Positions 1,546-14,469 of a stretch of DNA of 14,469 bases are shown here, in pieces. This DNA is from a virus. The position numbers and the translations under genes were made by a program. A model generated the notes under the pieces. That model was not told the origin of the DNA. It made no database searches and was given only the letters and a program-made list of their open reading frames with translations. The stretch is taken from the UHGV virus genome UHGV-0142781. The stretch is one strand, 5' to 3'. How positions within the stretch are numbered: position 1 is the stretch's first letter; every line of letters begins with the position of its first letter.

Positions 1546-2607
1546 ATGACAAAGAAACAGCGTAAAAATAAAAAATTCGGGTCCATGACCGGCAACAAGG
1601 TTGAAACCTTCACGCCAGGGCGCGGAAGCGTGATCACCTTTGGCGAACCAGAACCCATCCTGACGACCGGCACTGATTATCACAATATCTGGTATGACAA
1701 TGAGTATGACCACTGGCGACTCCCGATTGATCGCCTGGCGCTGGCCCAGTTGCCGAACCTTAACGGCCAGCACGGCGGGGTACTGTATGCGCGGCGCAAT
1801 ATGGTGGCCGGTGGCTATATCGGCGGCGGCCTGACGCCTGACCAGGTCGAACAGGCTGTCTTTGATTACCTGCTGTTTGGTGACGTCGCTATCCTGAAAA
1901 TTCGTAACGTATTCGGGGAAGTGATCGACCTGCTGCCGCTGCCGTCGCTGTATCTGCGCTGCCGGAAAGACGGGTCGTTTGCCGTTCTGCAGGAAGGGCC
2001 AGCGCTTATCTATGACCCGGAAGACATCGTTTTCTTTAAAATGTACGACCCTCGCCAGCAGGTGTATGGCCTGCCTGACTATATCGGCGGCATCCATTCG
2101 GTGTTACTCAACAGTGAGGCAACCATCTTCAGGCGCCGTTACTACAATAACGGGGCGCACATGGGCTTTATTCTCTATACCAGCGATCCGAATCTGACGC
2201 TGGAAATGGAAAACGAAATCAAAGAGAAGATCGCCCAGTCCAAAGGGCTGGGTAACTTCCGCAATATGTTTATCAACATCCCGAAGGGCGACCCGGAAGG
2301 GGTTAAAATCCTGCCGGTGGGCGAAGTCAGCGCAAAGGACGAATTTGCCAACATCAAAGGGATCACCGCACAGGATATCTTTACCGCTCACCGTTTCCCC
2401 GCTGGCCTGGCGGGTATCATCCCGACCAATGGCGCGGTAATGGGCAACCCTGAAACCGCCCGCACAACCTATCGCAAGGATGAAGTTATCCCCTTGCAGC
2501 GCAAGCTAATGAACGGCGTCAACAATGACCCGGAGATCCCCGCACACTTGCACCTGGTTTTTGACGTGGATATCCCAGCAATTACCACCGAAAAGGGCGA
2601 AAAATGA
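1546..2607 (+). CDS. Q: Capsid portal protein (P2 gpQ family)
   Basis: 353 aa; motifs FGEPEP, IFRRRYYNNGAHMGFILY, SKGLGNFRNMF and EVSAKDEFANIKGITAQDIFTAHR match my recollection of P2 gpQ. GGGAAAG RBS at 1533-1539. Confidence 0.85.
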   Translation: MTKKQRKNKKFGSMTGNKVETFTPGRGSVITFGEPEPILTTGTDYHNIWYDNEYDHWRLPIDRLALAQLPNLNGQHGGVLYARRNMVAGGYIGGGLTPDQVEQAVFDYLLFGDVAILKIRNVFGEVIDLLPLPSLYLRCRKDGSFAVLQEGPALIYDPEDIVFFKMYDPRQQVYGLPDYIGGIHSVLLNSEATIFRRRYYNNGAHMGFILYTSDPNLTLEMENEIKEKIAQSKGLGNFRNMFINIPKGDPEGVKILPVGEVSAKDEFANIKGITAQDIFTAHRFPAGLAGIIPTNGAVMGNPETARTTYRKDEVIPLQRKLMNGVNNDPEIPAHLHLVFDVDIPAITTEKGEK

Positions 2608-2930
2608 GCGCAGTTAAGTTAAAATCATCCCCATTGTTAGCAATGGTGTGCGGGATGGTGAACATGCGAGTTTTTAAAATTAAATGTCCTGAATGCGGCT
2701 CACCGGCCATCATTCGCAAATCAGACTGGAAAGATAAAAAACTGGCCGATTTATACTGCGCCTGCACGGAAGTTGAATGCGGCCACACCTTTGTTTTTAA
2801 CGCCCAGTTTTCACATACTCTCAGCCCCAGCGGACTGACCGGCAACAAGCTGGTTAAATTTCTGATTGATCGGCTCAAACCAGACGAAAGACAATTCGCT
2901 TTAGATTTGCTAAACAACCATATTAATTAA
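2604..2930 (+). CDS. Ogr/Delta-family zinc-finger transcriptional activator (late-gene activator type)
   Basis: CPEC-x22-C-TEVE-C-GHTF matches the Ogr pattern C-x2-C-x22-C-x4-C-x2-TF (P2 Ogr: CPLC...CQNVNCSATF). ATG at 2604 overlaps the Q stop TGA at 2605-2607 (ATGA). An alternative start at 2664 (MRVFKIKCPEC) gives an Ogr-sized protein. Confidence 0.7.
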   Translation: MSAVKLKSSPLLAMVCGMVNMRVFKIKCPECGSPAIIRKSDWKDKKLADLYCACTEVECGHTFVFNAQFSHTLSPSGLTGNKLVKFLIDRLKPDERQFALDLLNNHIN

Positions 2931-2982: not shown

Positions 2983-4818
2983 ATGAGCAATTCAAAATAC
3001 ATTAATTTAGATGCGAGAATAAAAAAACTAAAAGAAGTTGTTAAAGATTTAGACACAAACACTTTAGCAACCTACTCTTTTTGGGAAATGTACAAATTTG
3101 GTACATTAGGTCAAAAAATTGAACTACAATCACCAGCACGACAAATCTTATATCTTTTTGGGATTGCATGTTCATCTGCTGAACCAACCGAACCAACTGA
3201 TAATGTTGAGGGTAAGATAAAACAAACAGTAGAGATCCTAAATGATATTTTTACAAAATATATGTTGGCGTACTTTCCAACCAAAGATGATTTAAAATCT
3301 GGATTAGAAGATGAATGGCATAAAGTTAGAGAAGTTGCTATGCCAATGTTTTCAAACTACTTTTTTGAAGGGTTAAAAGTTTCCACTGAAAACTTCAAAG
3401 GGATCATAAAAAATTATTTCAATGGTTTTGAAAATGAAATAAAAACACATTTTGGCTTAGATCACCATGAAATGGTAGAAATTTTAAATCTCATTGGTGA
3501 GCTTATACAGAGCAAATATGACAGATTCCGTGAAATAATGGATACATTAAAAGACGAACATGAGAAATTTAAAGAGAATAATTTTGAAAAACATGAAGAT
3601 TTTATAACATATATGGATGACATGAGGGAGCGTACAAAACATTTAGCACAAGAATTTCATGACTTCCTCAATGGGAGTGTATCATTCAAGTTTGATTCAA
3701 TAAGATGTAAACTTGGTGACGATGTCGTTGATAGTTTTATAAAAGCTTTCGTTACAGAGCGTGGAAACTCATCCGAAATCAAATACATTACTGATGAGAA
3801 TCCATTTTCATATAAACCGATAGTAACTGTAAATAATCTGGATTATATGCTCCCTTCTGCTAACGCAGCTTATGAAGCTATCATTCTTAATCTTGAAAAG
3901 TTTTTTAAAGAGTCAAAACACAATGATAAATTTAGAAAAGCCCGAGACAACAGGCTGGAACATGAGACTTTTTGCACCTTTAGAAATTTCTTCCCTGAAT
4001 CAACTACAATACTTGAAAGTGTATTTGAAACAAACAAATCCCATAATGAACATGATCTGATTATTTTCCATGATAAAACGATTCTTATTGTAGAGGCTAA
4101 AGCATCACCACGCCGCGCTCCATTGAGAGAACCAGCCAGAGCATACATTAGAATTAGAGATGATTTCAAACGTAAATCAGGAATACAAAGCGCATCTGAA
4201 CAAGCAAATAACTTAAGAAATTTAATCATTAATAATGAAAAAACATCATTATATGATAAAAAAGGTAATTTACTATATACCATAAATCGTTGTGACTACG
4301 ACAATATATATTGTATATGTGTCACTAAAGATGATTTCGGAATGCTTGCTACAAATTTAACTTTAATGTTAGAAAAAAAAGAAGATGAACCCTACCCTTG
4401 GGTTATTTGTATTCAAGACTTGAAGTTTTATTTTGATTGCCTTAAGGAAATAGATTTGGATCATGACTATTTCTTAAATTATATTCGTGAAAGAATAAAA
4501 ATACACGGCAAAGCAACGGCATGTGATGAGCTTGAATATGCAGGTGCATACTTGAATTATGGTGGTTTCGATTTCATTAATAAAGAAGTAAACTCTAACG
4601 TTTGTCTTGATATCTCTGAATCACGAGTATTCGATGAAATCCATATCGAAAAAGTTAATGGCAGGAAATATGTTCACCAGATTAAAAAACCTACTTACAG
4701 CATTTTAAATAGAGATAAATTAATTTCTTCTTTAAATTTCAATCACTCAAACAAAGATGCAAAAAAAGCAAAATCAAAAAGAAAGGAACAGAAAAAATCC
4801 AGAAAAAGAAACCGTTAA
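2983..4818 (+). CDS. Cargo protein with central PD-(D/E)xK-like nuclease motif and poly-basic C-terminal tail; candidate defence effector
   Basis: 611 aa, strongly AT-rich. Residues 356-373 read EHDLIIFHDKTILIVEAK (D-x12-ExK, nt ~4048-4101). C-terminal 23 residues are almost all K/R/S. No Walker A motif. Confidence 0.85.
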   Translation: MSNSKYINLDARIKKLKEVVKDLDTNTLATYSFWEMYKFGTLGQKIELQSPARQILYLFGIACSSAEPTEPTDNVEGKIKQTVEILNDIFTKYMLAYFPTKDDLKSGLEDEWHKVREVAMPMFSNYFFEGLKVSTENFKGIIKNYFNGFENEIKTHFGLDHHEMVEILNLIGELIQSKYDRFREIMDTLKDEHEKFKENNFEKHEDFITYMDDMRERTKHLAQEFHDFLNGSVSFKFDSIRCKLGDDVVDSFIKAFVTERGNSSEIKYITDENPFSYKPIVTVNNLDYMLPSANAAYEAIILNLEKFFKESKHNDKFRKARDNRLEHETFCTFRNFFPESTTILESVFETNKSHNEHDLIIFHDKTILIVEAKASPRRAPLREPARAYIRIRDDFKRKSGIQSASEQANNLRNLIINNEKTSLYDKKGNLLYTINRCDYDNIYCICVTKDDFGMLATNLTLMLEKKEDEPYPWVICIQDLKFYFDCLKEIDLDHDYFLNYIRERIKIHGKATACDELEYAGAYLNYGGFDFINKEVNSNVCLDISESRVFDEIHIEKVNGRKYVHQIKKPTYSILNRDKLISSLNFNHSNKDAKKAKSKRKEQKKSRKRNR

Positions 4819-4872
4819 CAAAATATCCTTTTGACGAATTCAAACCAACTGAACATATGGAGAAAATAAAAC

Positions 4873-6228
4873 ATGAGAATGACCGCCCCATTAAAATCAT
4901 TTTCTGATGGATTTTGTGAGAATGACGACATTTTTGAAAGAAAAAAACTTCACGACATTATTATGCGAGTTGCTACTAACGCGCCTGATAAAAGTTTAGT
5001 TTTAGCATTAGATGATAAATGGGGTAATGGGAAAACTTCATTTGTAAAAATGATGGAATCAGAAATAAGCAAAAAACATTCCGATGATTTCGAAGTCATC
5101 TATTTTGATGCATTTAAAAGTGATTATCAGTCGGATCCATTTGTAGCGTTAACTTCCAATATTTATTCGTTGGTTAGTAATGAAGAAGGCAAGCTAAAAA
5201 CATTAGGTGAAAAATTATTAAGTGCTGGTAAAAAACTAGGAGCTTCATTCCTTTTAAATGGTGCGAAGTTTGCAATCAGTACTATTTCAGGTGGGATGGT
5301 TTCTGGTACTGTAGTCGAAAAGGCAAGTGATACAATATCAGAATCCATATCATCACCTGTAGAAAAATACATAGAAGAAAAGATAAAAGCAAGTGAGAGT
5401 GAGTTTGCTACTATTGAGCAATTTGGAAATTTGTTAACTGAGATATACAAAGAAAGTGGAAAGAAAATATTTTTTATAATTGATGAATTAGACCGTGCAC
5501 GACCTGATTTTTCATTGGATTTATTAGAAAAGATAAAACATATATTCTCAGTAGAGGGTATTATTTTTCTATTGGTCGTCAATCGCGAACAATTTGAAAA
5601 AAGCATTGAGTCTCGATATGGCAATATAAACTCAAGATTGTATCTCAATAAATTTGTTCATTACTGGTTTTCGCTTCCCAAAACAAGCTGTTTATCTGAT
5701 GGTTGCTTAAATGGATATACTTATTCAACTATAAAACGATATTTACTTTCCATTGATAATGGAAACGACTTATTAAGTAGAAATGGTCCGCTTCTTAATA
5801 CACTATCATTGCTTTTGGAAATAAATGGAGCTTCTTTGAGAGAGGCGGAACGCTGTTACTCGGTATTTTCGGTTATCGAAGATGTCAATAAAGTAAACTA
5901 CTATACAAGTGATGCATATAAAGTAGCTTTGGGACTTGTTGTTTTCCTGAAAGTACATAACTCACAGTTGTTAACTGAAATTGTCTTAAAAAAAATCGTG
6001 TTAAAAGAAGCGATAGCCAAGCTTTTAATATACACAGTTCATCACCACAATATAATCGAAGCTCAATTCATTGAATATATCTTAAAGTACCATTACGCAA
6101 CAAATGAAGAATTAATAGAAGAAAGGAAGCAAAGAACATACTCTGATATAGAAGGTGGATATGGTCGAAGAACTCCCCTATTAGAAGGCATGTTTAAAAC
6201 AGTTGAGGGGTTTGATATTAGTTCTTAA
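4873..6228 (+). CDS. KAP-like P-loop NTPase; candidate defence partner
   Basis: 451 aa, AT-rich. Walker A-like DDKWGNGKTSF (res 47-57, nt 5011-5043) and Walker B FFIIDELDR (res 200-208), about 150 residues apart with a hydrophobic stretch between, as in KAP NTPases. 54-bp gap after the upstream gene, same strand. Confidence 0.85.
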   Translation: MRMTAPLKSFSDGFCENDDIFERKKLHDIIMRVATNAPDKSLVLALDDKWGNGKTSFVKMMESEISKKHSDDFEVIYFDAFKSDYQSDPFVALTSNIYSLVSNEEGKLKTLGEKLLSAGKKLGASFLLNGAKFAISTISGGMVSGTVVEKASDTISESISSPVEKYIEEKIKASESEFATIEQFGNLLTEIYKESGKKIFFIIDELDRARPDFSLDLLEKIKHIFSVEGIIFLLVVNREQFEKSIESRYGNINSRLYLNKFVHYWFSLPKTSCLSDGCLNGYTYSTIKRYLLSIDNGNDLLSRNGPLLNTLSLLLEINGASLREAERCYSVFSVIEDVNKVNYYTSDAYKVALGLVVFLKVHNSQLLTEIVLKKIVLKEAIAKLLIYTVHHHNIIEAQFIEYILKYHYATNEELIEERKQRTYSDIEGGYGRRTPLLEGMFKTVEGFDISS

Positions 6229-6319: not shown

Positions 6320-8932
6320 TTATTTTGGGTGACTACCATCCACACCCGCCAGCATTTTTTGATACTCCCCGACCGGATCAAACCGCAGGCGCGTGGCATC
6401 AATACCGTGGTTATCACGCAGACGGTCCCATAATTTATTCACCGTCCGTGACTCATCGAGTAATTGACGCGTTATCAACTCGCCGCCAGCACTGCCCCGA
6501 TAAACTTTGCCGCCAATCTCCAGACGGCTCCCCATTAACAGCGAAACAGCCTGAATCTCTGAAATCTCAACCGAACACAACGCCGCATCAGCCAGCAGAC
6601 TGGCAACCTCAGGGGCAAGCGCTGCCCGCCTGGCTTTTTCAGCCGCCGATCTGGCCTCGGTTTTTTTAACGGCAGAACGCCAGGCAACATCTAATTCGCT
6701 CCCTGGCTCATAAGGTGATCCGCTTTGCCGCCTTTTGAATGGTGCTTCACGTAGTCGCCGCATCAATTTTCGCCGCGTTGGCTGGTCCATATTTTCAAAA
6801 TCGACGATTTCCTCTTCTGATTCTTCTGTCATACCCTCCACATCACGCGAAAAATCGGTGATTTTTTCGTCTTCCGTAGAGTTATTGACAGAACTCCAAG
6901 CGTCGCCGGTTGGCGACGGCAAAAGGTCAACCCCCAAACCGGGGCCGTTTTTGGCCTCGGTGGTAGCTTTAGATTTGGCGCAGATTTTCCACTTAACCAG
7001 ACGGGTACAAATACGGGAGGCATCACCCAGACGCGGCGACCAGACCCCGAAAACCTTTTCGGGGATCTCACAATAAGCATTCATTTCATCAGCTGGCTGA
7101 TAGGCCAGACGGACGACATAGTTTTCTCGCGGGATCAAAACCCCACCCTGGCGGATGATGTAGGTAGCAAAGCACCCGACATCGGCAGCGGCGCAAACCG
7201 CATCCATTGCAGGATCCACAAGCAACGGCGCACCGCGTTTGAAGGTATTGTCAATTTTCTGGCGGGTCGTGATTTGATTGCTCAGTTTGCGCAGCTCGCG
7301 GTAAACCGATATGGGCGGCTGTCCGATAGGCTGAAACTGGCGGATACGGTGAAGCGATGCCCAGGCCATTGCATATTTGGCGGTTTCATTCAGCGGCTTG
7401 CCGCTTTCGTCGTCCAGTTCACCGGCCAGCGCGTGGCCGTCGATATTCTTCGAAATGTATTTAGCGATATATGCCGTTGCCGACCCTTTCCGTGGGTCCA
7501 TTTTTTTTGACTTGAAACGAGCACCGGTATTGCGGCCCAGCTCATCGCGGTCTTCCGCAATGAAGTAGGCGCGAAGGATCGCAACCGTGGCTTTGACTTG
7601 CTCTTGTGGCATAAACAGCAACGCGTGCCAGTGTGGTGTCCCATCGTGATGCGGCTCGGCGACACGGAAGCCATAAGGGCGCAAATCTTCGCGTTTCAGT
7701 TTGGCGGTTGCACGGTTCCATACACGGCATAAATAGCGCTGCGCCTGGGCGACGGTGGAATGATTCCATTTGGCATTATGGTGGCCGGACGCAATATTAC
7801 TGTGATATTTCGACGGGCAAGTGATGGTCAGGAAAATACCAACATCGCCGCGACTTTGGGCGACAAGTTCAACGCCAGCCATTCTGGTCATAAGCTCATG
7901 GCGACGAATAGCCGGGTTAGACGTGGATTTATTAATCATTTCCTCAAGCGACGAAACGTTGCCGTCTTCGTCTACCAGTTCATGACTTTTGAAAAAATCC
8001 CGGTTTTTACGGCGCTGTTCCTGCCACTCGATCAGGCTGGAAGCGCTAACGTAGGCGTGCGCTTTTTTATTTACCGCGCCAACAGCACGCAGCTGGTTCT
8101 CGCGCCAGTCACAACGCAAGCGCCAGATTTTTCGCCCCCACCAGTCAGGCGAAGCCATACGCAAAATGGCCGTGCATATGCGCTCGCGTTCCCACGGCGC
8201 ATACCATGCAGGCGGCACAATACGAAGCGCCAGCATTTCTCGGCCCAGGTGGCAATAAAGCCAGTCCAGTTCTTCGACGTTCATGTCGGAAACATTCCGC
8301 CCTAGGGCTTCGCATTCCGTCCCCAGCATTTCAGCCATGCGGCTGGCGATCTCATTAGCGGCGCTTAGTGCATCCCGCTTTGTGAAATCAGCCAGACGTT
8401 GCCAGCGCCCGAACCAGTACGCGGCCAGTTCGCCGGTGATATCAGGCGAAACACCTTGCCTTGTGCGTACAACATCAAGACGCAGCAATGATTTTTTCAC
8501 GGTTCCCATAAGAAAATCATTGGTGTGTCTGGTTTCACGGTTGACCCGTAACCACTCAATTTTTTTTCGCCAGACTTCACGAATGAAGAACGGCTCTGCT
8601 AATAAACGCGCTTCGACACCTTCCGGCGTATTGGTCCAGGCTGCCGTCGTAGATTTGGCGGCTTCCATTTCCTGCCGGATTAAATTTTGATGGGCGGCCA
8701 GTGGCAGGCCGCACGGTTCGTACCTGTCCAGCGCCTGGATAAGCGCGTTACGGTCCCGCACCTCGTCGGGGTTGTAACCGGCGTGTCTGAAGATGTGATC
8801 GATGTGTTTTTTTACGGCAGGATGATGCGCCACCGCCCCGGCAAGCGGGGCGATTTTTTTCGGTTCGTAGGTGTACAGGCCAACAGCTGGGCGCGGCGCG
8901 TTCCAGGGCCATGCAAAAGCTGTGTCAGACAT
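6320..8932 (-). CDS. A: Replication initiation protein (P2 gpA family rolling-circle endonuclease)
   Basis: About 870 aa at the expected position upstream of the cargo slot; identified by size, synteny and general resemblance to gpA. ORF track starts at a GTG at 8950; the ATG at 8930-8932 (MSDTAF...) is the more likely start. Confidence 0.85.
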   Translation of the reverse strand: MSDTAFAWPWNAPRPAVGLYTYEPKKIAPLAGAVAHHPAVKKHIDHIFRHAGYNPDEVRDRNALIQALDRYEPCGLPLAAHQNLIRQEMEAAKSTTAAWTNTPEGVEARLLAEPFFIREVWRKKIEWLRVNRETRHTNDFLMGTVKKSLLRLDVVRTRQGVSPDITGELAAYWFGRWQRLADFTKRDALSAANEIASRMAEMLGTECEALGRNVSDMNVEELDWLYCHLGREMLALRIVPPAWYAPWERERICTAILRMASPDWWGRKIWRLRCDWRENQLRAVGAVNKKAHAYVSASSLIEWQEQRRKNRDFFKSHELVDEDGNVSSLEEMINKSTSNPAIRRHELMTRMAGVELVAQSRGDVGIFLTITCPSKYHSNIASGHHNAKWNHSTVAQAQRYLCRVWNRATAKLKREDLRPYGFRVAEPHHDGTPHWHALLFMPQEQVKATVAILRAYFIAEDRDELGRNTGARFKSKKMDPRKGSATAYIAKYISKNIDGHALAGELDDESGKPLNETAKYAMAWASLHRIRQFQPIGQPPISVYRELRKLSNQITTRQKIDNTFKRGAPLLVDPAMDAVCAAADVGCFATYIIRQGGVLIPRENYVVRLAYQPADEMNAYCEIPEKVFGVWSPRLGDASRICTRLVKWKICAKSKATTEAKNGPGLGVDLLPSPTGDAWSSVNNSTEDEKITDFSRDVEGMTEESEEEIVDFENMDQPTRRKLMRRLREAPFKRRQSGSPYEPGSELDVAWRSAVKKTEARSAAEKARRAALAPEVASLLADAALCSVEISEIQAVSLLMGSRLEIGGKVYRGSAGGELITRQLLDESRTVNKLWDRLRDNHGIDATRLRFDPVGEYQKMLAGVDGSHPK

Positions 8933-9146
8933 TGGATGCCCCGCTATCACCCTCCCGCTGGGAATGTTTTTCGATTAGCGGGTCGAGTAACACATTGAAA
9001 GAAATCAACAGCGTATTTGCGGCTTCACTTCCGGCGAGAACACCCGCGAACGTTGCGTGTGCAAGGGCCAGTGTTTTGGCTTCGTTAAGCGCAGCCAGTG
9101 CGCCGCGCTGGTATTCCGAAAGACCGTTATTAATTTTGTTAGCCAT
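8925..9146 (-). CDS. Small hypothetical phage early protein
   Basis: 73 aa; its ATG overlaps the dam stop (TGATG at ~9144-9148), suggesting translational coupling; position matches the small ORFs before A in P2. Confidence 0.6.
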   Translation of the reverse strand: MANKINNGLSEYQRGALAALNEAKTLALAHATFAGVLAGSEAANTLLISFNVLLDPLIEKHSQREGDSGASNV

Positions 9147-10111
9147 CAGAAGACCACCTCGTCAGCCGTCCCACCCCACACGGAATAACCAGCACAAGGG
9201 CCACAGTCAGGACAGCACCCACCACCTGCACGACGACAAGTTGCACAGACTTTGAGGACGCCGATCACTTCACTGGCGGCCCCTCTGGTAATGGCGTTCG
9301 CGCTGACAGAACGGTTAACGCTGATTTCCTGGAAGTTGAAAGCGCGATAAATCTCGCGGGTAGATGGGGTGTCGCTATTGGACAGGATCACCGGCGAACC
9401 AGTAAGGCGGTTAATATCCAGCAGGGCGGCAGCTAACTGGCGATGCTCTTTAATCCCAAACGGGGCGGTGTGGTATTGGGTGAAATTAGCGGTTTCGCTT
9501 GTTGGCAGGTATGGCGGATCGCAGTAGATAACCGCGTCACTACCAATCATAATTTTTAACGTGCTCTGGAAATCGCAGCACACGAAAATGGCTTTCGTGT
9601 CGTTAGCTTTTTCAGTGAATAAACGGATCTGTTCTTCCGGGAAGTAAGGCGGGGTTTTGTGTCGCCCAAAGGGAACGTTATATCCACCCTGTTGGTTGTA
9701 GCGTACTACGCCGTTATATCCGTGACGGTTCAGGTAAAGAAATTGTGCTGCACGAAGAATCTTGCCCGTGTCCGGTCCGTCCTCAAACACATTGCGCGAT
9801 GACAGAAGGTCATAGGCGCGGGCGTTGAAATCATCGCGGATCCACTTATAGCCGTCTTTATCGCCGTACACTTTAAACAGCGGGCGAGCAGCGTCGATCA
9901 CCGCATCAGGCCAGCGGGTTATCTGGCGATACAGGTTAATTAAATCTGGGTTGATATCACCCAGGATATAACGGCGATATTCAGTATTGAGGAAAACAGA
10001 AGCACCGCCGACAAACGGTTCCACCAGGCAATCGGCTTTCGGCAGAATCGTTAGCAAATCAGGCATAACCCGGCCTTTGCCACCGGGCCATTTAACGAGA
10101 GATCGAATCAT
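9146..10111 (-). CDS. dam: DNA adenine methyltransferase (Dam family) with Cys-rich C-terminal extension
   Basis: N-terminal KWPGGK, EPFVGG and catalytic DPPY (res 198-201) motifs; GGAGAAAG RBS. C-terminal about 35 residues carry six Cys (CATC...CC..C..C). Confidence 0.9.
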   Translation of the reverse strand: MIRSLVKWPGGKGRVMPDLLTILPKADCLVEPFVGGASVFLNTEYRRYILGDINPDLINLYRQITRWPDAVIDAARPLFKVYGDKDGYKWIRDDFNARAYDLLSSRNVFEDGPDTGKILRAAQFLYLNRHGYNGVVRYNQQGGYNVPFGRHKTPPYFPEEQIRLFTEKANDTKAIFVCCDFQSTLKIMIGSDAVIYCDPPYLPTSETANFTQYHTAPFGIKEHRQLAAALLDINRLTGSPVILSNSDTPSTREIYRAFNFQEISVNRSVSANAITRGAASEVIGVLKVCATCRRAGGGCCPDCGPCAGYSVWGGTADEVVF

Positions 10112-10586: not shown

Positions 10587-10808
10587 CTACGCAAAGATGC
10601 CCATTAAGCGGGAAAACCAGCGGCGCTTATTACGCGGGCGCGACATGAACGGTACACGGCAGTTTTTAACAAATTGAACATCTGCCGCTTTCGGCTGGAA
10701 GAACCGCCCGTCCGGGGTTTCAATCCAGCCGCGTTGATGCTGACGGTGGGTGATCTGCTGGCCGTGCGTGAGCAGACTAGCGAGTGAAGGGCATTGTGTT
10801 AATTCCAT
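10587..10808 (-). CDS. Small hypothetical phage early protein
   Basis: ORF track gives 10587..10880; the internal ATG at 10806-10808 (MELTQCP...) is preceded by GGAG. GC-rich, same strand as neighbours. Start uncertain. Confidence 0.45.
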   Translation of the reverse strand: MELTQCPSLASLLTHGQQITHRQHQRGWIETPDGRFFQPKAADVQFVKNCRVPFMSRPRNKRRWFSRLMGIFA

Positions 10809-10946
10809 GTTGATCTCCGTCATATTGAAAAGATGCCGGGATACGACCCCACGCCCGGCGCGTGTTTCCTGTGATAACATCGCTATGCCTGTGTAACTTT
10901 GAGCAGTGAATCAGGCATAACAATCACCAACACAGAAGGAGTTGTA

Positions 10947-11800: not shown

Positions 11801-12076
11801 TTATGATGGATTGCCCAGACCCAACCACATTAACCACCCTTCCCTAATTTCCTTCGGGCGGCTCTCATACGCCATTTTCATTCCGTTGTTCCATGCTGGG
11901 AGGTAGACCCAGTACTCACCTGCCCGCCCGGAAGTTGATTGCGGATCGGTCATCTCAACTACGGGTAGCTTTCCTTTTTCAATCATCCCCTTCACCGCTG
12001 CCGGTGTTTTACCAATGAGTTTTGCGAACTCCTGATATGGGACGGCATCTGTGCTTAACGCGATCTGTTTAACCAT
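11801..12076 (-). CDS. cox: Cox (excisionase / lytic-switch regulator)
   Basis: 91 aa; translation tracks my recollection of P2 Cox over most of its length (AIPYQEFAKLIGK, DPQSTSGRAGEYWVYLPAWNNG, ESRPKEIREGWLMWLGLG). GAGGG RBS. Confidence 0.9.
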   Translation of the reverse strand: MVKQIALSTDAVPYQEFAKLIGKTPAAVKGMIEKGKLPVVEMTDPQSTSGRAGEYWVYLPAWNNGMKMAYESRPKEIREGWLMWLGLGNPS

Positions 12077-12192: not shown

Positions 12193-12492
12193 ATGTCAAA
12201 CGCCTTAAACGAGAAAATTGTACTCATCAGAAAGTCTGAGTATCTCAGCAGACAGCAACTAGCTGATTTAACAGGCATTCCCTATGGCACTTTAAGTTAT
12301 TACGAAAGTGGTCGTTCTACACCGCCCACGGACGTAATGATGAGGATTTTGCAAATGCCCCAATTCAGCAAATACACGTTGTGGTTTATGACCGATCAGG
12401 TTGCTCCCGAAGCCGGTCAGATAGCACCGGCCCTCGCACACTTTGGGCAAGATGTAACAACATCGCAGCACTCAGACCAAAAGATTGGTTAA
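12193..12492 (+). CDS. C: Immunity repressor C
   Basis: 99 aa; near-collinear with my recollection of P2 C (EKIVLIRKSEYLSRQQLADLTGIPYGTLSYYESGRSTPPTDVMM...), same length. Confidence 0.9.
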   Translation: MSNALNEKIVLIRKSEYLSRQQLADLTGIPYGTLSYYESGRSTPPTDVMMRILQMPQFSKYTLWFMTDQVAPEAGQIAPALAHFGQDVTTSQHSDQKIG

Positions 12493-12637: not shown

Positions 12638-13645
12638 ATGACAATTAAGAAACTCGATGATGGTCGTTATGAAGTGGATATCAGACCTGCAGGGCGCAAC
12701 GGAAAGCGCATCCGCAGGAAATTTGACAAGAAAAGTGAGGCTGTAGCTTTTGAGAAACACACTCAATACAACCATCACGATAAAGAATGGCTGGCTAAAC
12801 CGACAGATAAGCGGCATCTGTCTGAATTAACAAAAGTCTGGTGGGATCTGAAAGGCAAGCATGAAGAACACGGAAAATCCAATTTGGGTAAGATTGAAAT
12901 CTTTACCCGGATCACTGATGACCCTTGCGCGTTCCAGATAACCAAAGCGCTTATTAGCCAGTACAGCATGACTCGCAGAGGGCAAGGCATAAAACCGGCC
13001 AGTATTAACCGCGACCTTACCTGCTTGAGTGGTATGTTTACTGCGCTAATTGATGCGGAGTTGTTTTTTGGCGAACACCCTTTCAGAGGGATGAAAAAGC
13101 TCAAGGAGCAGAAACCAGAAACAGGCTATCTGACGCAGGAAGAAATAACATTGTTGCTTGCCAATCTTGACGGGGACAACAAGAAAATCGCGATTCTCTG
13201 TTTAAGTACCGGCGCTCGATGGGGTGAGGCCGCGAAACTGAAAGCTGAGAACGTAATACAGAATCGGGTGACGTTCGTTAAAACAAAGACGAACAAACCA
13301 CGTACTGTCCCTATCTCTGAGGAAGTAGCTGTAATGATTGCGGGTAAAGGGTATCTGTTCCCAGATGCCTCATACCCGAAGTTCAGGCGAACAATGAAAG
13401 ATGTAAAACCAGATCTACCGGACGGGCAAGCAACTCACGCATTGCGTCACAGTTTTGCTACCCACTTTATGATTAACGGCGGGAGTATCATCACCTTGCA
13501 GAGAATACTGGGACATTCACGGATAGAGCAGACAATGGTCTATGCGCACTTTGCCCCGGAGTATCTTCAGGATGCTGTTTCACTCAATCCGCTACGTGGT
13601 GGTGTTGACTCCCAGAGTGTCCACACTGTGTCCACAGTAGGGTAG
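12638..13645 (+). CDS. int: Tyrosine integrase (P2 Int family)
   Basis: 335 aa; N-terminus MTIKKLDDGRYEVDIRPAGRNGKRIRRKFDKKSEAVAFEK and C-terminal HALRHSFATHFM...LGHSRIEQTMVYAHFAPEY match P2 Int as I recall it. GGGGG RBS. Confidence 0.95.
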   Translation: MTIKKLDDGRYEVDIRPAGRNGKRIRRKFDKKSEAVAFEKHTQYNHHDKEWLAKPTDKRHLSELTKVWWDLKGKHEEHGKSNLGKIEIFTRITDDPCAFQITKALISQYSMTRRGQGIKPASINRDLTCLSGMFTALIDAELFFGEHPFRGMKKLKEQKPETGYLTQEEITLLLANLDGDNKKIAILCLSTGARWGEAAKLKAENVIQNRVTFVKTKTNKPRTVPISEEVAVMIAGKGYLFPDASYPKFRRTMKDVKPDLPDGQATHALRHSFATHFMINGGSIITLQRILGHSRIEQTMVYAHFAPEYLQDAVSLNPLRGGVDSQSVHTVSTVG

Positions 13646-13848: not shown

Positions 13849-14469
13849 TTAATGTGCAGCTTCTGGCTTGTGCTTTTGCGCACTCTGGAAACCATAAGTC
13901 AGCTCATTTTTCTCTTTATCCAGCGCAACGGTCACCTGGCCACCATCCACCAGCGAACCGAACAGCAGTTCGTTAGCCAATGGTTTTTTCAGGTTATCCT
14001 GGACAACACGCGTCATTGGACGTGCGCCCATTGCGCGGTCGTAGCCTTTCTCTGCCAGCCAGTCACGTGCTTCCTGGCTCACTTCCAGAGAGACACCTTT
14101 CTGATCCAGCTGAACCTGAAGCTCGACGATAAACTTATCAACAACCTGATGAATCACCTCGGTAGAGAGATGATCAAACCAGATAATGTTGTCGAGGCGG
14201 TTACGGAATTCCGGCGTAAACACTTTTTTGATTTCGCCCATTGCATCAGTACTATTGTCCTGATGAATCAACCCAATCGATTTACGCTCAGTTTCACGCA
14301 CACCGGCGTTGGTGGTCATGACCAGCACCACATTGCGGAAATCCGCTTTACGCCCGTTATTGTCGGTCAGCGTGCCGTTATCCATCACCTGCAACAGCAG
14401 GTTAAAGACATCCGGGTGTGCTTTTTCGATTTCATCCAGCAGCAGTACCGCATGCGGATGCTTAATAAC
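13849..14469 (-). CDS. clpA: ATP-dependent Clp protease ATP-binding subunit ClpA, C-terminal part (gene runs off window end)
   Basis: Translation ...LLQVMDNGTLTDNNGRKADFRNVVLVMTTNAG...ALDKEKNELTYGFQSAQKHKPEAAH matches the ClpA C-terminus nearly residue for residue; stop at 13849-13851. Confidence 0.95.
   Translation of the reverse strand, partial: VIKHPHAVLLLDEIEKAHPDVFNLLLQVMDNGTLTDNNGRKADFRNVVLVMTTNAGVRETERKSIGLIHQDNSTDAMGEIKKVFTPEFRNRLDNIIWFDHLSTEVIHQVVDKFIVELQVQLDQKGVSLEVSQEARDWLAEKGYDRAMGARPMTRVVQDNLKKPLANELLFGSLVDGGQVTVALDKEKNELTYGFQSAQKHKPEAAH

What the first reader, a model, noticed from the sequence alone, without database searches (positions are those of the whole stretch)
9146..9260. 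Dam methyltransferase carries a Cys-rich C-terminal tail
After the normal Dam catalytic region (DPPY at res 198-201) the protein continues with VCATCRRAGGGCCPDCGPCAGYSVWGG, six cysteines in 18 residues, encoded by a notably GC-rich stretch. This is not part of the canonical Dam fold as I know it. It could be a metal-binding knuckle for regulation or DNA targeting, or the result of a frame change or fusion with downstream sequence.
Basis: partly seen in the sequence, partly recalled or inferred. Interest (0 to 1): 0.3.

Follow-up and report, generated by a model that had tools for sequence, protein, structure and literature searches.

The report
Zinc-knuckle tail on prophage Dam methylase
The cysteine-rich end of this prophage DNA methylase is real and conserved: it is a small four-cysteine, probably zinc-binding, module that most closely related prophage methylases carry and that also sits inside the RecE recombination nuclease, and I found no description or test of its function.

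Summary
Window 9146-10111 (minus strand) encodes a 321-aa Dam-family methyltransferase of a P2-like prophage. The canonical fold ends at residue 287. Residues 288-321 form an extra tail with six Cys in 18 residues.

It is not a frameshift. Of 121 close homologues, 84 carry the same CxxC-x6/7-CxxC core (consensus KVCxGCGRxGGGxCPDCGP). Four cysteines (C289, C292, C300, C303) are invariant; C299 and C306 vary. Over 13 loci the codons show purifying selection (pN/pS 0.25), and the Cys codons alternate TGT/TGC.

Host Dam and prophage Dams below about 50% identity lack the tail. So do 19 E. coli genomes with a 96.5%-identical gene, so the tail is accessory.

A tail-only profile against 1.84 billion proteins finds the same module in other proteins:
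- E. coli RecE, residues 517-545, in its N-terminal part "of unknown function".
- RecE-like proteins with a DnaQ-type nuclease domain.
- A small early protein of a Mu-like phage.

No Pfam, NCBIfam or PDB entry models it, and I found no paper describing it.

Best reading: a mobile Cys4 (zinc) mini-domain acting as a docking or tethering element. Metal binding and function are inferred, not shown. The last codons also carry the ribosome-binding site and the overlapping start of the next gene. Interest is modest.

The parts
9146..10111 (-). Complete Dam-family N6-adenine DNA methyltransferase gene (321 aa plus stop)
   Evidence: ORF list. Pfam PF02086, E 1.4e-57. TIGR00571 'dam' 256.8 bits against a cut-off of 114.85. 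E. coli Dam 2G1P, E 1.7e-63.
9251..10111 (-). Canonical methyltransferase core, residues 1-287 (DPPY at nt 9509-9520)
   Evidence: Alignment to E. coli Dam covers residues 3-287. AF2 models the core confidently: the 10-residue pLDDT block means are mostly 72-96, with three low blocks (52-59) around residues 101-110, 201-210 and 261-270, and 51 for 271-280.
9197..9253 (-). Cys4 knuckle, K287-P305 (KVCATCRRAGGGCCPDCGP). Putative metal ligands are C289 (9245-9247), C292 (9236-9238), C300 (9212-9214) and C303 (9203-9205).
   Evidence: Four invariant Cys columns in 34 tails. Motif present in 84/121 homologues. pN/pS 0.25 with TGT/TGC alternation. A profile built only from non-Dam modules scores 19.2 bits, against at most 8.3 bits in 2000 shuffles.
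9149..9196 (-). Variable C-terminal peptide C306-F321 (CAGYSVWGGTADEVVF), 'class B' ending
   Evidence: One of at least four alternative endings after CPDCGP. AF2 pLDDT below 50 for 304-316 and 318-321. Homology to phage SI7 stops just after CPDCGP.
9144..9160 (-). Translational-coupling signal inside the last Dam codons: GAGGTG (9155-9160), 8-nt spacer, then TGATG stop/start overlap (Dam stop 9146-9148; next ATG 9144-9146)
   Evidence: Sequence. 24 of 35 related loci have an overlapping stop/start, and 20 of these also have an SD-like purine run in the last codons.
8925..9146 (-). Downstream 73-aa ORF, same operon, no family match
   Evidence: ORF list. No PHROG, NCBIfam or Pfam hit. A homologue follows a different Dam tail in Candidatus Erwinia dacicola (L004).
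6320..8932 (-). P2-type replication endonuclease gpA (likely start ATG 8932, overlapping the stop of the 73-aa ORF)
   Evidence: phrog_91 'nicking at origin of replication', E 5.7e-255. Start inferred from homologues beginning MSDTAFAWPWNAPR.

Best explanation
The tail is a genuine, selected, accessory mini-domain grafted onto the C-terminus of a P2-like prophage Dam methyltransferase.

Its core (residues 289-303, CxxC-x7-CPDC) most likely folds around one Zn2+ held by C289, C292, C300 and C303. C299 and C306 are dispensable extras. The final 16 residues are a variable, probably disordered peptide. Its last codons also serve as the ribosome-binding site and overlapping start for the next gene.

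The knuckle belongs to a previously unmodelled, horizontally mobile module of temperate enterobacterial phages. The same module occurs in Rac RecE (residues 517-545), in RecE-like proteins carrying either a PD-(D/E)xK or a DnaQ-type nuclease, and in small early proteins of Mu-like phages.

It is not needed for the methyltransferase fold or catalysis. My committed guess is that it works as a docking or tethering element. It would hold the enzyme at a shared target, more likely a conserved host or phage protein (or the protein itself) than DNA, so that phage DNA is methylated efficiently during early replication.

What is shown: existence, reading frame, conservation, selection, modular distribution and dispensability. 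What is inferred: zinc binding (my estimate about 0.75) and the docking role (about 0.4).
For: - Frame and motif recur in 84/121 homologues at 53-93% identity, and another 16 carry other tails with at least 4 Cys.
- Four Cys columns are invariant and the second pair is the classical CPxCG knuckle.
- Synonymous sites are near saturation (pS 0.76) while pN is 0.19, and the Cys codons alternate TGT/TGC.
- The tail lies outside the Dam fold.
- A tail-only profile against 1.84e9 proteins gives 30 hits at E <= 1e-3. They include RecE-family proteins, 3'-5' exonuclease fusions and small proteins.
- K-12 RecE has [28 protein letters not shown] at 517-545. Review PMC11611040 calls that N-terminal part a domain of unknown function.
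- A 79-aa carrier lies next to Kil, GemA and DUF3164 genes, typical of a Mu-like early region.
- At least 566 stretches encoding a relative of the module were found in IMG/VR viral contigs.
- In RecE the module is flanked by strongly acidic linkers, which argues for protein contact rather than DNA contact.
- Accessory nature: natural tail-less versions exist. Six of the 121 have no tail, and 19 E. coli genomes have a 96.5%-identical gene whose homology stops at V288.
Against: - No metal or binding data exist.
- AF2 gives only pLDDT about 58 for the knuckle in the full-length model and 55 for the isolated tail, so there is no confident fold.
- No curated zinc-finger family or solved structure matches significantly. 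The best PDB hit has E 0.029 and covers generic CPxCG only.
- The window's own tail shares only the knuckle half with RecE. The VMGDATYxEMF half is replaced by CAGYSVWGG, and the score is 19 bits against up to 58 bits for class-A Dam tails. A partner that reads the second half would not be shared.
- Tail-less relatives persist in genomes, so any benefit is conditional.
- No candidate partner was identified.
Confidence: 0.55

Rival explanations
1. The knuckle is a small non-specific DNA-binding zinc finger that adds a DNA contact to Dam. It would raise affinity or processivity on phage DNA, functionally like the C-terminal DNA-binding domain of CcrM.
For: Every large carrier is a DNA enzyme: Dam, RecE-type nucleases and a DnaQ-like exonuclease. 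The window tail has K287, R293 and R294 around the first CxxC. Zinc knuckles commonly bind nucleic acids (general knowledge).
Against: The module has few basic residues. In RecE it is net acidic and embedded in long acidic linkers. It is very small. No similarity to any known DNA-binding zinc finger was found.
Confidence: 0.25
2. The six cysteines bind an iron-sulfur cluster or form a redox-active centre that makes methylation respond to oxidative state. The window contains C300-x2-C303-x2-C306 and a thioredoxin-like CGPC.
For: The window sequence has CPDCGPC. 30 of 121 homologues have CxxCGPC. Fe-S clusters occur in other DNA enzymes (general knowledge; for example Cas4, PMC3466216, listed).
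Against: Only four Cys are invariant. C306 is V, A or Y, and C299 is R, H, Y, L or G, in many homologues and in RecE. Two CxxC pairs with CPxCG are the typical zinc or rubredoxin-type pattern.
Confidence: 0.08
3. The tail has no function of its own. It is a tolerated recombination scar at a mosaic junction, kept because its DNA carries the ribosome-binding site and start overlap for the downstream gene.
For: Homology to SI7 breaks just after CPDCGP, and to the E. coli relatives just before the knuckle. Several alternative endings exist, and some tails contain the N-terminus of a downstream ORF family. 20 of 35 loci have SD plus stop/start overlap in the last codons. Tail-less variants exist.
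Against: The coupling signal explains only the last 4-5 codons. The knuckle is conserved at the protein level while synonymous sites are near saturation. It recurs in unrelated proteins where no downstream-gene coupling applies, such as the middle of RecE. The same class-B tail precedes different downstream genes.
Confidence: 0.08
4. A frameshift, misassembly or read-through into downstream sequence created an artificial Cys-rich end.
For: None beyond its unusual composition.
Against: The identical 35-residue tail occurs in P0031, and one differing at a single residue in P0034. Near-identical knuckles occur in phage SI7 and dozens of genomes. Codon-level purifying selection acts in this frame.
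Confidence: 0.01

Closest known systems
E. coli Dam (PDB 2G1P) and the Dam family (Pfam PF02086, TIGR00571)
   Same: The catalytic core is the same. Residues 3-287 align with E 1.7e-63, the DPPY motif is at 198-201 and the EPFVGG AdoMet motif at 31-36.
   Different: Host Dam proteins end at about 266-278 aa with no cysteine motif. The window protein scores below the cut-off of the host-Dam equivalog NF008152 (259 against 441 bits). It also has an insertion of about 13-20 residues near residues 98-117.
Dam of Salmonella phage SI7 / SW3 / SW5 (Peduoviridae, Irrigatiovirus; QEI25461.1)
   Same: 97.6% identical over residues 1-288. Same knuckle (CSGCGRAGGGRCPDCGP) and same gene neighbourhood: cox ... 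Dam ... replication endonuclease.
   Different: After CPDCGP it has the class-A ending VMGNATYNEMLATAAAYGVEPF. It is followed by a different small ORF and a cytosine methyltransferase.
RecE (exonuclease VIII) of the Rac prophage, residues 517-545, and RecE-like phage exonucleases
   Same: Same CxxCGxxGGxxCPDCG knuckle with identical Cys spacing. The tail profile hits these proteins at E 1e-10 to 1e-7 in a 1.84e9-protein library, and a profile built from them recognises the window tail.
   Different: In RecE the module is internal, between acidic linkers and ahead of the nuclease domain. It always continues with VMGDATYxE(T/M)F, which the window tail lacks. Its function in RecE is also unknown.
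Generic CPxCG zinc knuckles and ribbons (rubredoxin-type knuckles, TFIIB zinc ribbon, haloarchaeal C(P)XCG small proteins)
   Same: Two CxxC pairs, the second being CPxCG. This is the ligand pattern of zinc ribbons and rubredoxin knuckles (general knowledge; weak matches).
   Different: No significant sequence match: best E 0.029-1 in PDB, and Pfam Zn_Ribbon_TF and ZnF_RZ far below cut-off. The 7-residue inter-pair loop is much shorter than in true ribbons.
C-terminal DNA-binding domain of CcrM (beta-class adenine methyltransferase)
   Same: Precedent for an orphan adenine methyltransferase with a non-catalytic C-terminal extension (my own knowledge, not tested here).
   Different: Unrelated in sequence and size (about 80 residues), and not cysteine-based.

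Membership tests
Dam family / D12-class N6-adenine DNA methyltransferase | Significant match to the family profile over the whole catalytic domain | tested here: met
   PF02086 E 1.4e-57, residues 8-268, profile positions 1-252 of 253. TIGR00571 256.8 bits against a cut-off of 114.85.
Dam family / D12-class N6-adenine DNA methyltransferase | Catalytic motif IV (D/N)PP(Y/F) and AdoMet motif I FxGxG | tested here: met
   D198 P199 P200 Y201 and E31 P32 F33 V34 G35 are invariant in a 68-sequence alignment.
Dam family / D12-class N6-adenine DNA methyltransferase | GATC specificity and actual methyl transfer | not testable with these tools
   Inferred only from the alignment to E. coli Dam. The score is below the host-Dam equivalog cut-off (NF008152, 259 against 441 bits).
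Cys4 zinc knuckle / zinc-ribbon-like mini-domain | Four metal-ligand residues in two CxxC-type pairs, conserved across homologues | tested here: met
   C289, C292, C300 and C303 are invariant in 34 aligned tails. The motif is in 84/121 homologues. pN/pS is 0.25.
Cys4 zinc knuckle / zinc-ribbon-like mini-domain | Match to a curated zinc-finger family or a solved zinc-binding structure | tested here: not met
   No Pfam family above cut-off. The best PDB profile hit has E 0.029 on CPxCG only.
Cys4 zinc knuckle / zinc-ribbon-like mini-domain | Confidently predicted compact fold | tested here: inconclusive
   AF2 pLDDT is about 58 for 291-300 in the full-length model and 55 for the isolated tail. 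Only two single-residue beta-bridges are assigned, at tail positions 2 and 9, which flank the first CxxC.
Cys4 zinc knuckle / zinc-ribbon-like mini-domain | Stoichiometric metal binding | not testable with these tools
   Needs ICP-MS or a PAR assay on purified protein.
RecE-type 'CPDCG' module (unnamed; defined here from non-Dam carriers) | Knuckle half: CxxCGxxGGGxCPDCG with 7-residue spacing | tested here: met
   A profile built only from RecE-like and small proteins scores the window Dam 19.2 bits. The maximum over 2000 tail shuffles is 8.3 bits.
RecE-type 'CPDCG' module (unnamed; defined here from non-Dam carriers) | Second half: (P/A)VMGDATYxE(M/T)F directly after the knuckle | tested here: not met
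   The window has PCAGYSVWGG instead. V20, T25 and Y26 of the non-Dam alignment are invariant there but absent here. 52 of the 121 Dam tails do have it.

The most novel reading that the evidence does not exclude
The tail is one instance of an undescribed, horizontally mobile zinc-knuckle module of about 30 residues. Three unrelated lineages of temperate enterobacterial phages carry it: P2-like, Rac/lambdoid and Mu-like. They graft it onto DNA-processing enzymes (Dam, RecE with either of two nuclease types) and onto small early proteins. On this reading all carriers dock to one shared cellular target, such as a replisome or repair factor or a defence sensor. It would also be the functional element in RecE's N-terminal part, whose function is unknown.
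Probability: 0.3. Interest if true: 0.6.

Novelty: new variant of a known kind. Interest (0 to 1): 0.35.

Why it matters
On its own this is an ordinary prophage Dam with an accessory end, and this subfamily is common in Enterobacterales. The useful result is the link. The same short cysteine module is the only strongly conserved island in the linker of RecE-family recombination nucleases. The N-terminal part of RecE improves linear-linear recombineering but has no assigned function (PMC11611040). The module also appears in Mu-like early proteins. If it is a docking element for a shared host factor, it would show how different temperate phages position DNA-modifying enzymes early in infection. 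It would also give a small, testable handle on full-length RecE: four Cys-to-Ser changes. If it is only a structural cap, the finding is a minor annotation point, and a Pfam-type model for the module would still improve annotation.

Tried and rejected
- **Frameshift or artefact:** rejected by homologues and codon analysis.
- **Curated families:** Pfam, NCBIfam and PHROGs hold no separate model for the tail. PHROG and NCBIfam hits on small carriers only reach the RecE segment.
- **PDB:** a profile search with the tail returned only generic CPxCG noise.
- **AF2 of the isolated tail:** pLDDT 55, too poor for a fold search, so none was run.
- **Linkage of tail class to the downstream gene:** rejected. 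The window's 73-aa ORF also follows a non-Cys tail in L004. The class-B tail is followed by different genes in L086 and L087.
- **Chi-site idea (A-G-G encoded as GCTGGTGG):** rejected. The window has GCAGGTGG, and none of 13 loci encodes Chi there.
- **Beta-clamp or SSB-tip mimicry by the acidic ...E-x-F end:** recalled from memory and not run as a test. The end is largely explained by the SD and overlapping stop/start, and the YxEMF stretch does not fit QLxLF as I recall it.
- **Word-index search with the module alignment:** only 13 candidates, little added. An earlier attempt failed on the minimum length.
- **Literature:** the searches found no description of the module. One search was wasted on 'rece' matching 'receptor'.
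- **Rfam and tRNA scans of the window:** empty.

Full report
**1. What is in the sequence**

The minus-strand ORF 9146..10111 encodes a 321-aa protein ending ...EVIGVLKVCATCRRAGGGCCPDCGPCAGYSVWGGTADEVVF.
- Pfam PF02086 (D12-class N6-adenine methyltransferase) covers residues 8-268 at E 1.4e-57.
- TIGR00571 'dam' scores 256.8 bits against a cut-off of 114.85.
- E. coli Dam (PDB 2G1P) aligns to residues 3-287 at E 1.7e-63.
- DPPY is at residues 198-201.

Residues 288-321 therefore lie outside the canonical fold.

The GC remark is true but weak. The tail is 59% GC, against 51% for the rest of the gene and 46% for the window, and 6% of equal-sized windows are as rich. The Cys/Gly/Pro/Ala codons account for it.

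**2. Context**

The window is the early region of a P2-like (Peduoviridae) prophage.
- ogr (2604-2930, plus strand)
- an unknown 611-aa ORF, then a KAP-family NTPase
- replication endonuclease gpA (6320-8932, minus strand)
- a 73-aa ORF (8925-9146)
- Dam
- a Fil-like protein, then cox (11801-12076)
- repressor (12193-12492) and integrase (12638-13645)

Dam, the 73-aa ORF and gpA overlap at their stops and starts (TGATG; ATGTCTGA), so they look translationally coupled.

**3. Not a frameshift**

The closest phage, Salmonella phage SI7, has a Dam 97.6% identical over residues 1-288. It continues CSGCGRAGGGRCPDCGP and then has a different ending.

Among the 120 best database homologues plus the window protein (53-93% identity, all Enterobacterales where named), the tails fall into these groups:

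| Tail type | Count of 121 |
|---|---|
| CxxC-x6/7-CxxC knuckle (consensus KVCxGCGRxGGGxCPDCGP) | 84 |
| Other tails with at least 4 Cys | 16 |
| Non-Cys tails | 15 |
| No tail | 6 |

In an alignment of 34 tails the invariant columns are C289, C292, G297, C300 and C303. C299 and C306 vary.

Over 13 loci with DNA in hand, the 20 knuckle codons give pS 0.76 and pN 0.19 (ratio 0.25). Each invariant Cys uses both TGT and TGC. The frame is therefore real and constrained at the protein level.

**4. Where the tail stops phylogenetically**

In 80 genome loci found with the Dam alignment, the knuckle occurs only in relatives above about 50% identity. Host dam genes and more distant prophage Dams end at about 266-283 aa.

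Nineteen complete E. coli genomes carry a gene 96.5% identical at the DNA level whose homology stops exactly at V288. That protein is 296 aa, ends KVATSTGICE and runs into the start of gpA. The knuckle and the 73-aa ORF are deleted.

The tail is therefore accessory and not needed for the methyltransferase fold.

**5. Mosaic structure**

After CPDCGP there are alternative endings:

| Class | Ending | Count |
|---|---|---|
| A | xMGDATYxxM...EAF | 52 |
| B (window type) | CAGYSVWGG..EVVF | 11 |
| C | CAGYS...ESEENPIPL | 7 |
| D | a second Cys cluster | 7 |

Homology breaks fall just before or just after the knuckle. The same class-B tail precedes different downstream genes, and the window's 73-aa ORF follows a different tail elsewhere. 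Tail and neighbour are therefore not linked.

The frequent ...E-x-F end is largely a by-product of translation signals. 24 of 35 loci have an overlapping stop/start, and 20 also have an SD-like run in the last codons. In the window this is GAGGTG at 9155-9160, 8 nt before the ATG that shares a base with the TGA.

**6. The module occurs outside Dam**

A profile of the tails alone, searched against 1.84 billion representative proteins, gave 30 hits at E <= 1e-3. Besides Dam proteins they are:
- RecE-family proteins, with the Exonuc_VIII N-terminal domain and/or a PD-(D/E)xK DUF3799 nuclease domain.
- RecE-like proteins ending in an Rv2179c-like 3'-5' exonuclease.
- Small proteins of 79-190 aa with the module at or near their C-terminus, whose only family hits fall on the RecE segment.

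E. coli K-12 RecE itself has [28 protein letters not shown] at residues 517-545. [quoted passage not shown]

A 79-aa carrier sits next to Kil, GemA and DUF3164 genes, which is typical of a Mu-like early region.

Of those stretches 566 encode a relative of the module. Among the best 80, most are RecE-like proteins of about 810-1050 aa with the module at about residue 540, and the rest are Dam tails.

A profile built only from non-Dam modules scores the window Dam 19.2 bits. The maximum over 2000 composition-preserving shuffles of the tail is 8.3 bits. Class-A Dam tails reach 57.8 bits. The window therefore shares the knuckle half of the module but not the VMGDATYxEMF half.

**7. What is known about it**

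- No Pfam model covers the module in RecE or in the tail.
- The PDB profile search gives only generic CPxCG resemblance: consensus zinc finger, TFIIB ribbon and a miniaturised rubredoxin, at E 0.029-1.
- AF2 models the methyltransferase core well but gives pLDDT about 58 for 291-300, below 50 from 304, and 55 for the isolated tail. There is therefore no structural confirmation, and no fold search was justified.
- Full-text searches found no description of the motif in Dam or RecE.

**8. Mechanism**

Shown: the tail is a real, selected, dispensable, modular Cys4 element.

Inferred: it binds one zinc through C289, C292, C300 and C303. Two points support this. Two CxxC pairs with the second as CPxCG form the standard zinc-knuckle pattern. 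Divergent tails also keep four Cys even when their positions shift, for example GCPAGGCGHCDSAVEC.

For function I favour a docking or tethering role over DNA binding, with moderate confidence:
- The module is grafted onto several unrelated early-expressed DNA enzymes.
- It is poor in basic residues.
- In RecE it sits between long acidic linkers.

Rivals:
- A non-specific DNA-binding finger.
- An Fe-S or redox centre. The window has CxxCxxC and CGPC, but C306 and C299 are not conserved.
- A neutral recombination scar. This is contradicted by selection on the knuckle and by its occurrence inside RecE.

**9. Verdict**

The 'frame change' idea is refuted. The tail is not peculiar to this sequence, because it is the norm in this prophage Dam subfamily.

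What is new is modest. It is an unmodelled mobile mini-domain, undescribed as far as I could find, shared between P2-like Dam tails, RecE-family nucleases and Mu-like early proteins. Interest 0.35; novelty: new variant of a known kind.

Noticed in passing
window 2983-6228 (+): Between ogr and gpA lie a 611-aa ORF with no PADLOC or Pfam match (2983-4818; PHROGs and NCBIfam were not run on it) and a 451-aa KAP-family P-loop NTPase (4873-6228). The NTPase matches the PADLOC candidate defence family PDC-S20 at E 8.9e-72. This looks like anti-phage cargo at a P2-type variable hotspot.
   Followed up: partly
L085 3590-4480 (E. coli O45:H2 FWSEC0003) and 18 other E. coli genomes: A natural tail-less version of almost the same Dam gene (96.5% DNA identity). 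Homology ends exactly at V288. The knuckle and the 73-aa ORF are deleted, and the ORF runs into the start of gpA. This prophage also carries an IS3 insertion.
   Followed up: yes
L016 4975-5238, L006 4984-5244, L024 4845-5117, L012 4831-5136; Dam tails of P0102-P0113, P0016, P0017, L020: Some Dam homologues end with a W/F-x-G-(F/V/L)-D-(P/L)-A motif. That motif is the N-terminus of a small ORF family (86-101 aa) lying just downstream of Dam in other loci. Pieces of the neighbouring gene have apparently been fused onto Dam by deletion or recombination.
   Followed up: partly
window 8925-9146 (-): A 73-aa ORF wedged between Dam and gpA, overlapping both (TGATG and ATGTCTGA). It has no PHROG, NCBIfam or Pfam match. 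A homologue is in Candidatus Erwinia dacicola (L004 4930-5148).
   Followed up: partly
window about 9761-9820 (-), Dam residues about 98-117: An insertion of roughly 13-20 residues relative to E. coli Dam, in the helical DNA-binding part. It is locally low-confidence in AF2, with pLDDT below 50 at residues 105-107.
   Followed up: no
L084 59-298: A 79-aa protein (P0123) whose C-terminal half is the CPDCG module lies directly upstream of Kil, GemA and DUF3164 genes, which is typical of a Mu-like early region. The module is therefore not confined to P2-like and Rac-like phages.
   Followed up: partly
P0126, P0129, P0131 versus P0128, P0135, P0145; L089-L168: RecE-like proteins place the same module and acidic linker ahead of either of two unrelated nuclease domains. 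One is Rv2179c/DnaQ-like 3'-5' (about 813-826 aa). The other is PD-(D/E)xK DUF3799 (about 866-1050 aa). This suggests domain swapping downstream of the module.
   Followed up: partly
window 13849-14394 (-): A 181-aa ORF next to the integrase matches only the C-terminal part of ClpB-type AAA+ proteins (AAA_2 end plus the ClpB D2-small domain). It may be a truncated host gene at the prophage boundary.
   Followed up: no
window 10587-10880 (-): A 97-aa ORF upstream of Dam matches the PHROG 'cell division inhibitor' family (phrog_816, E 8e-27). In related loci the corresponding gene is annotated as a phage filamentation (Fil) protein.
   Followed up: no
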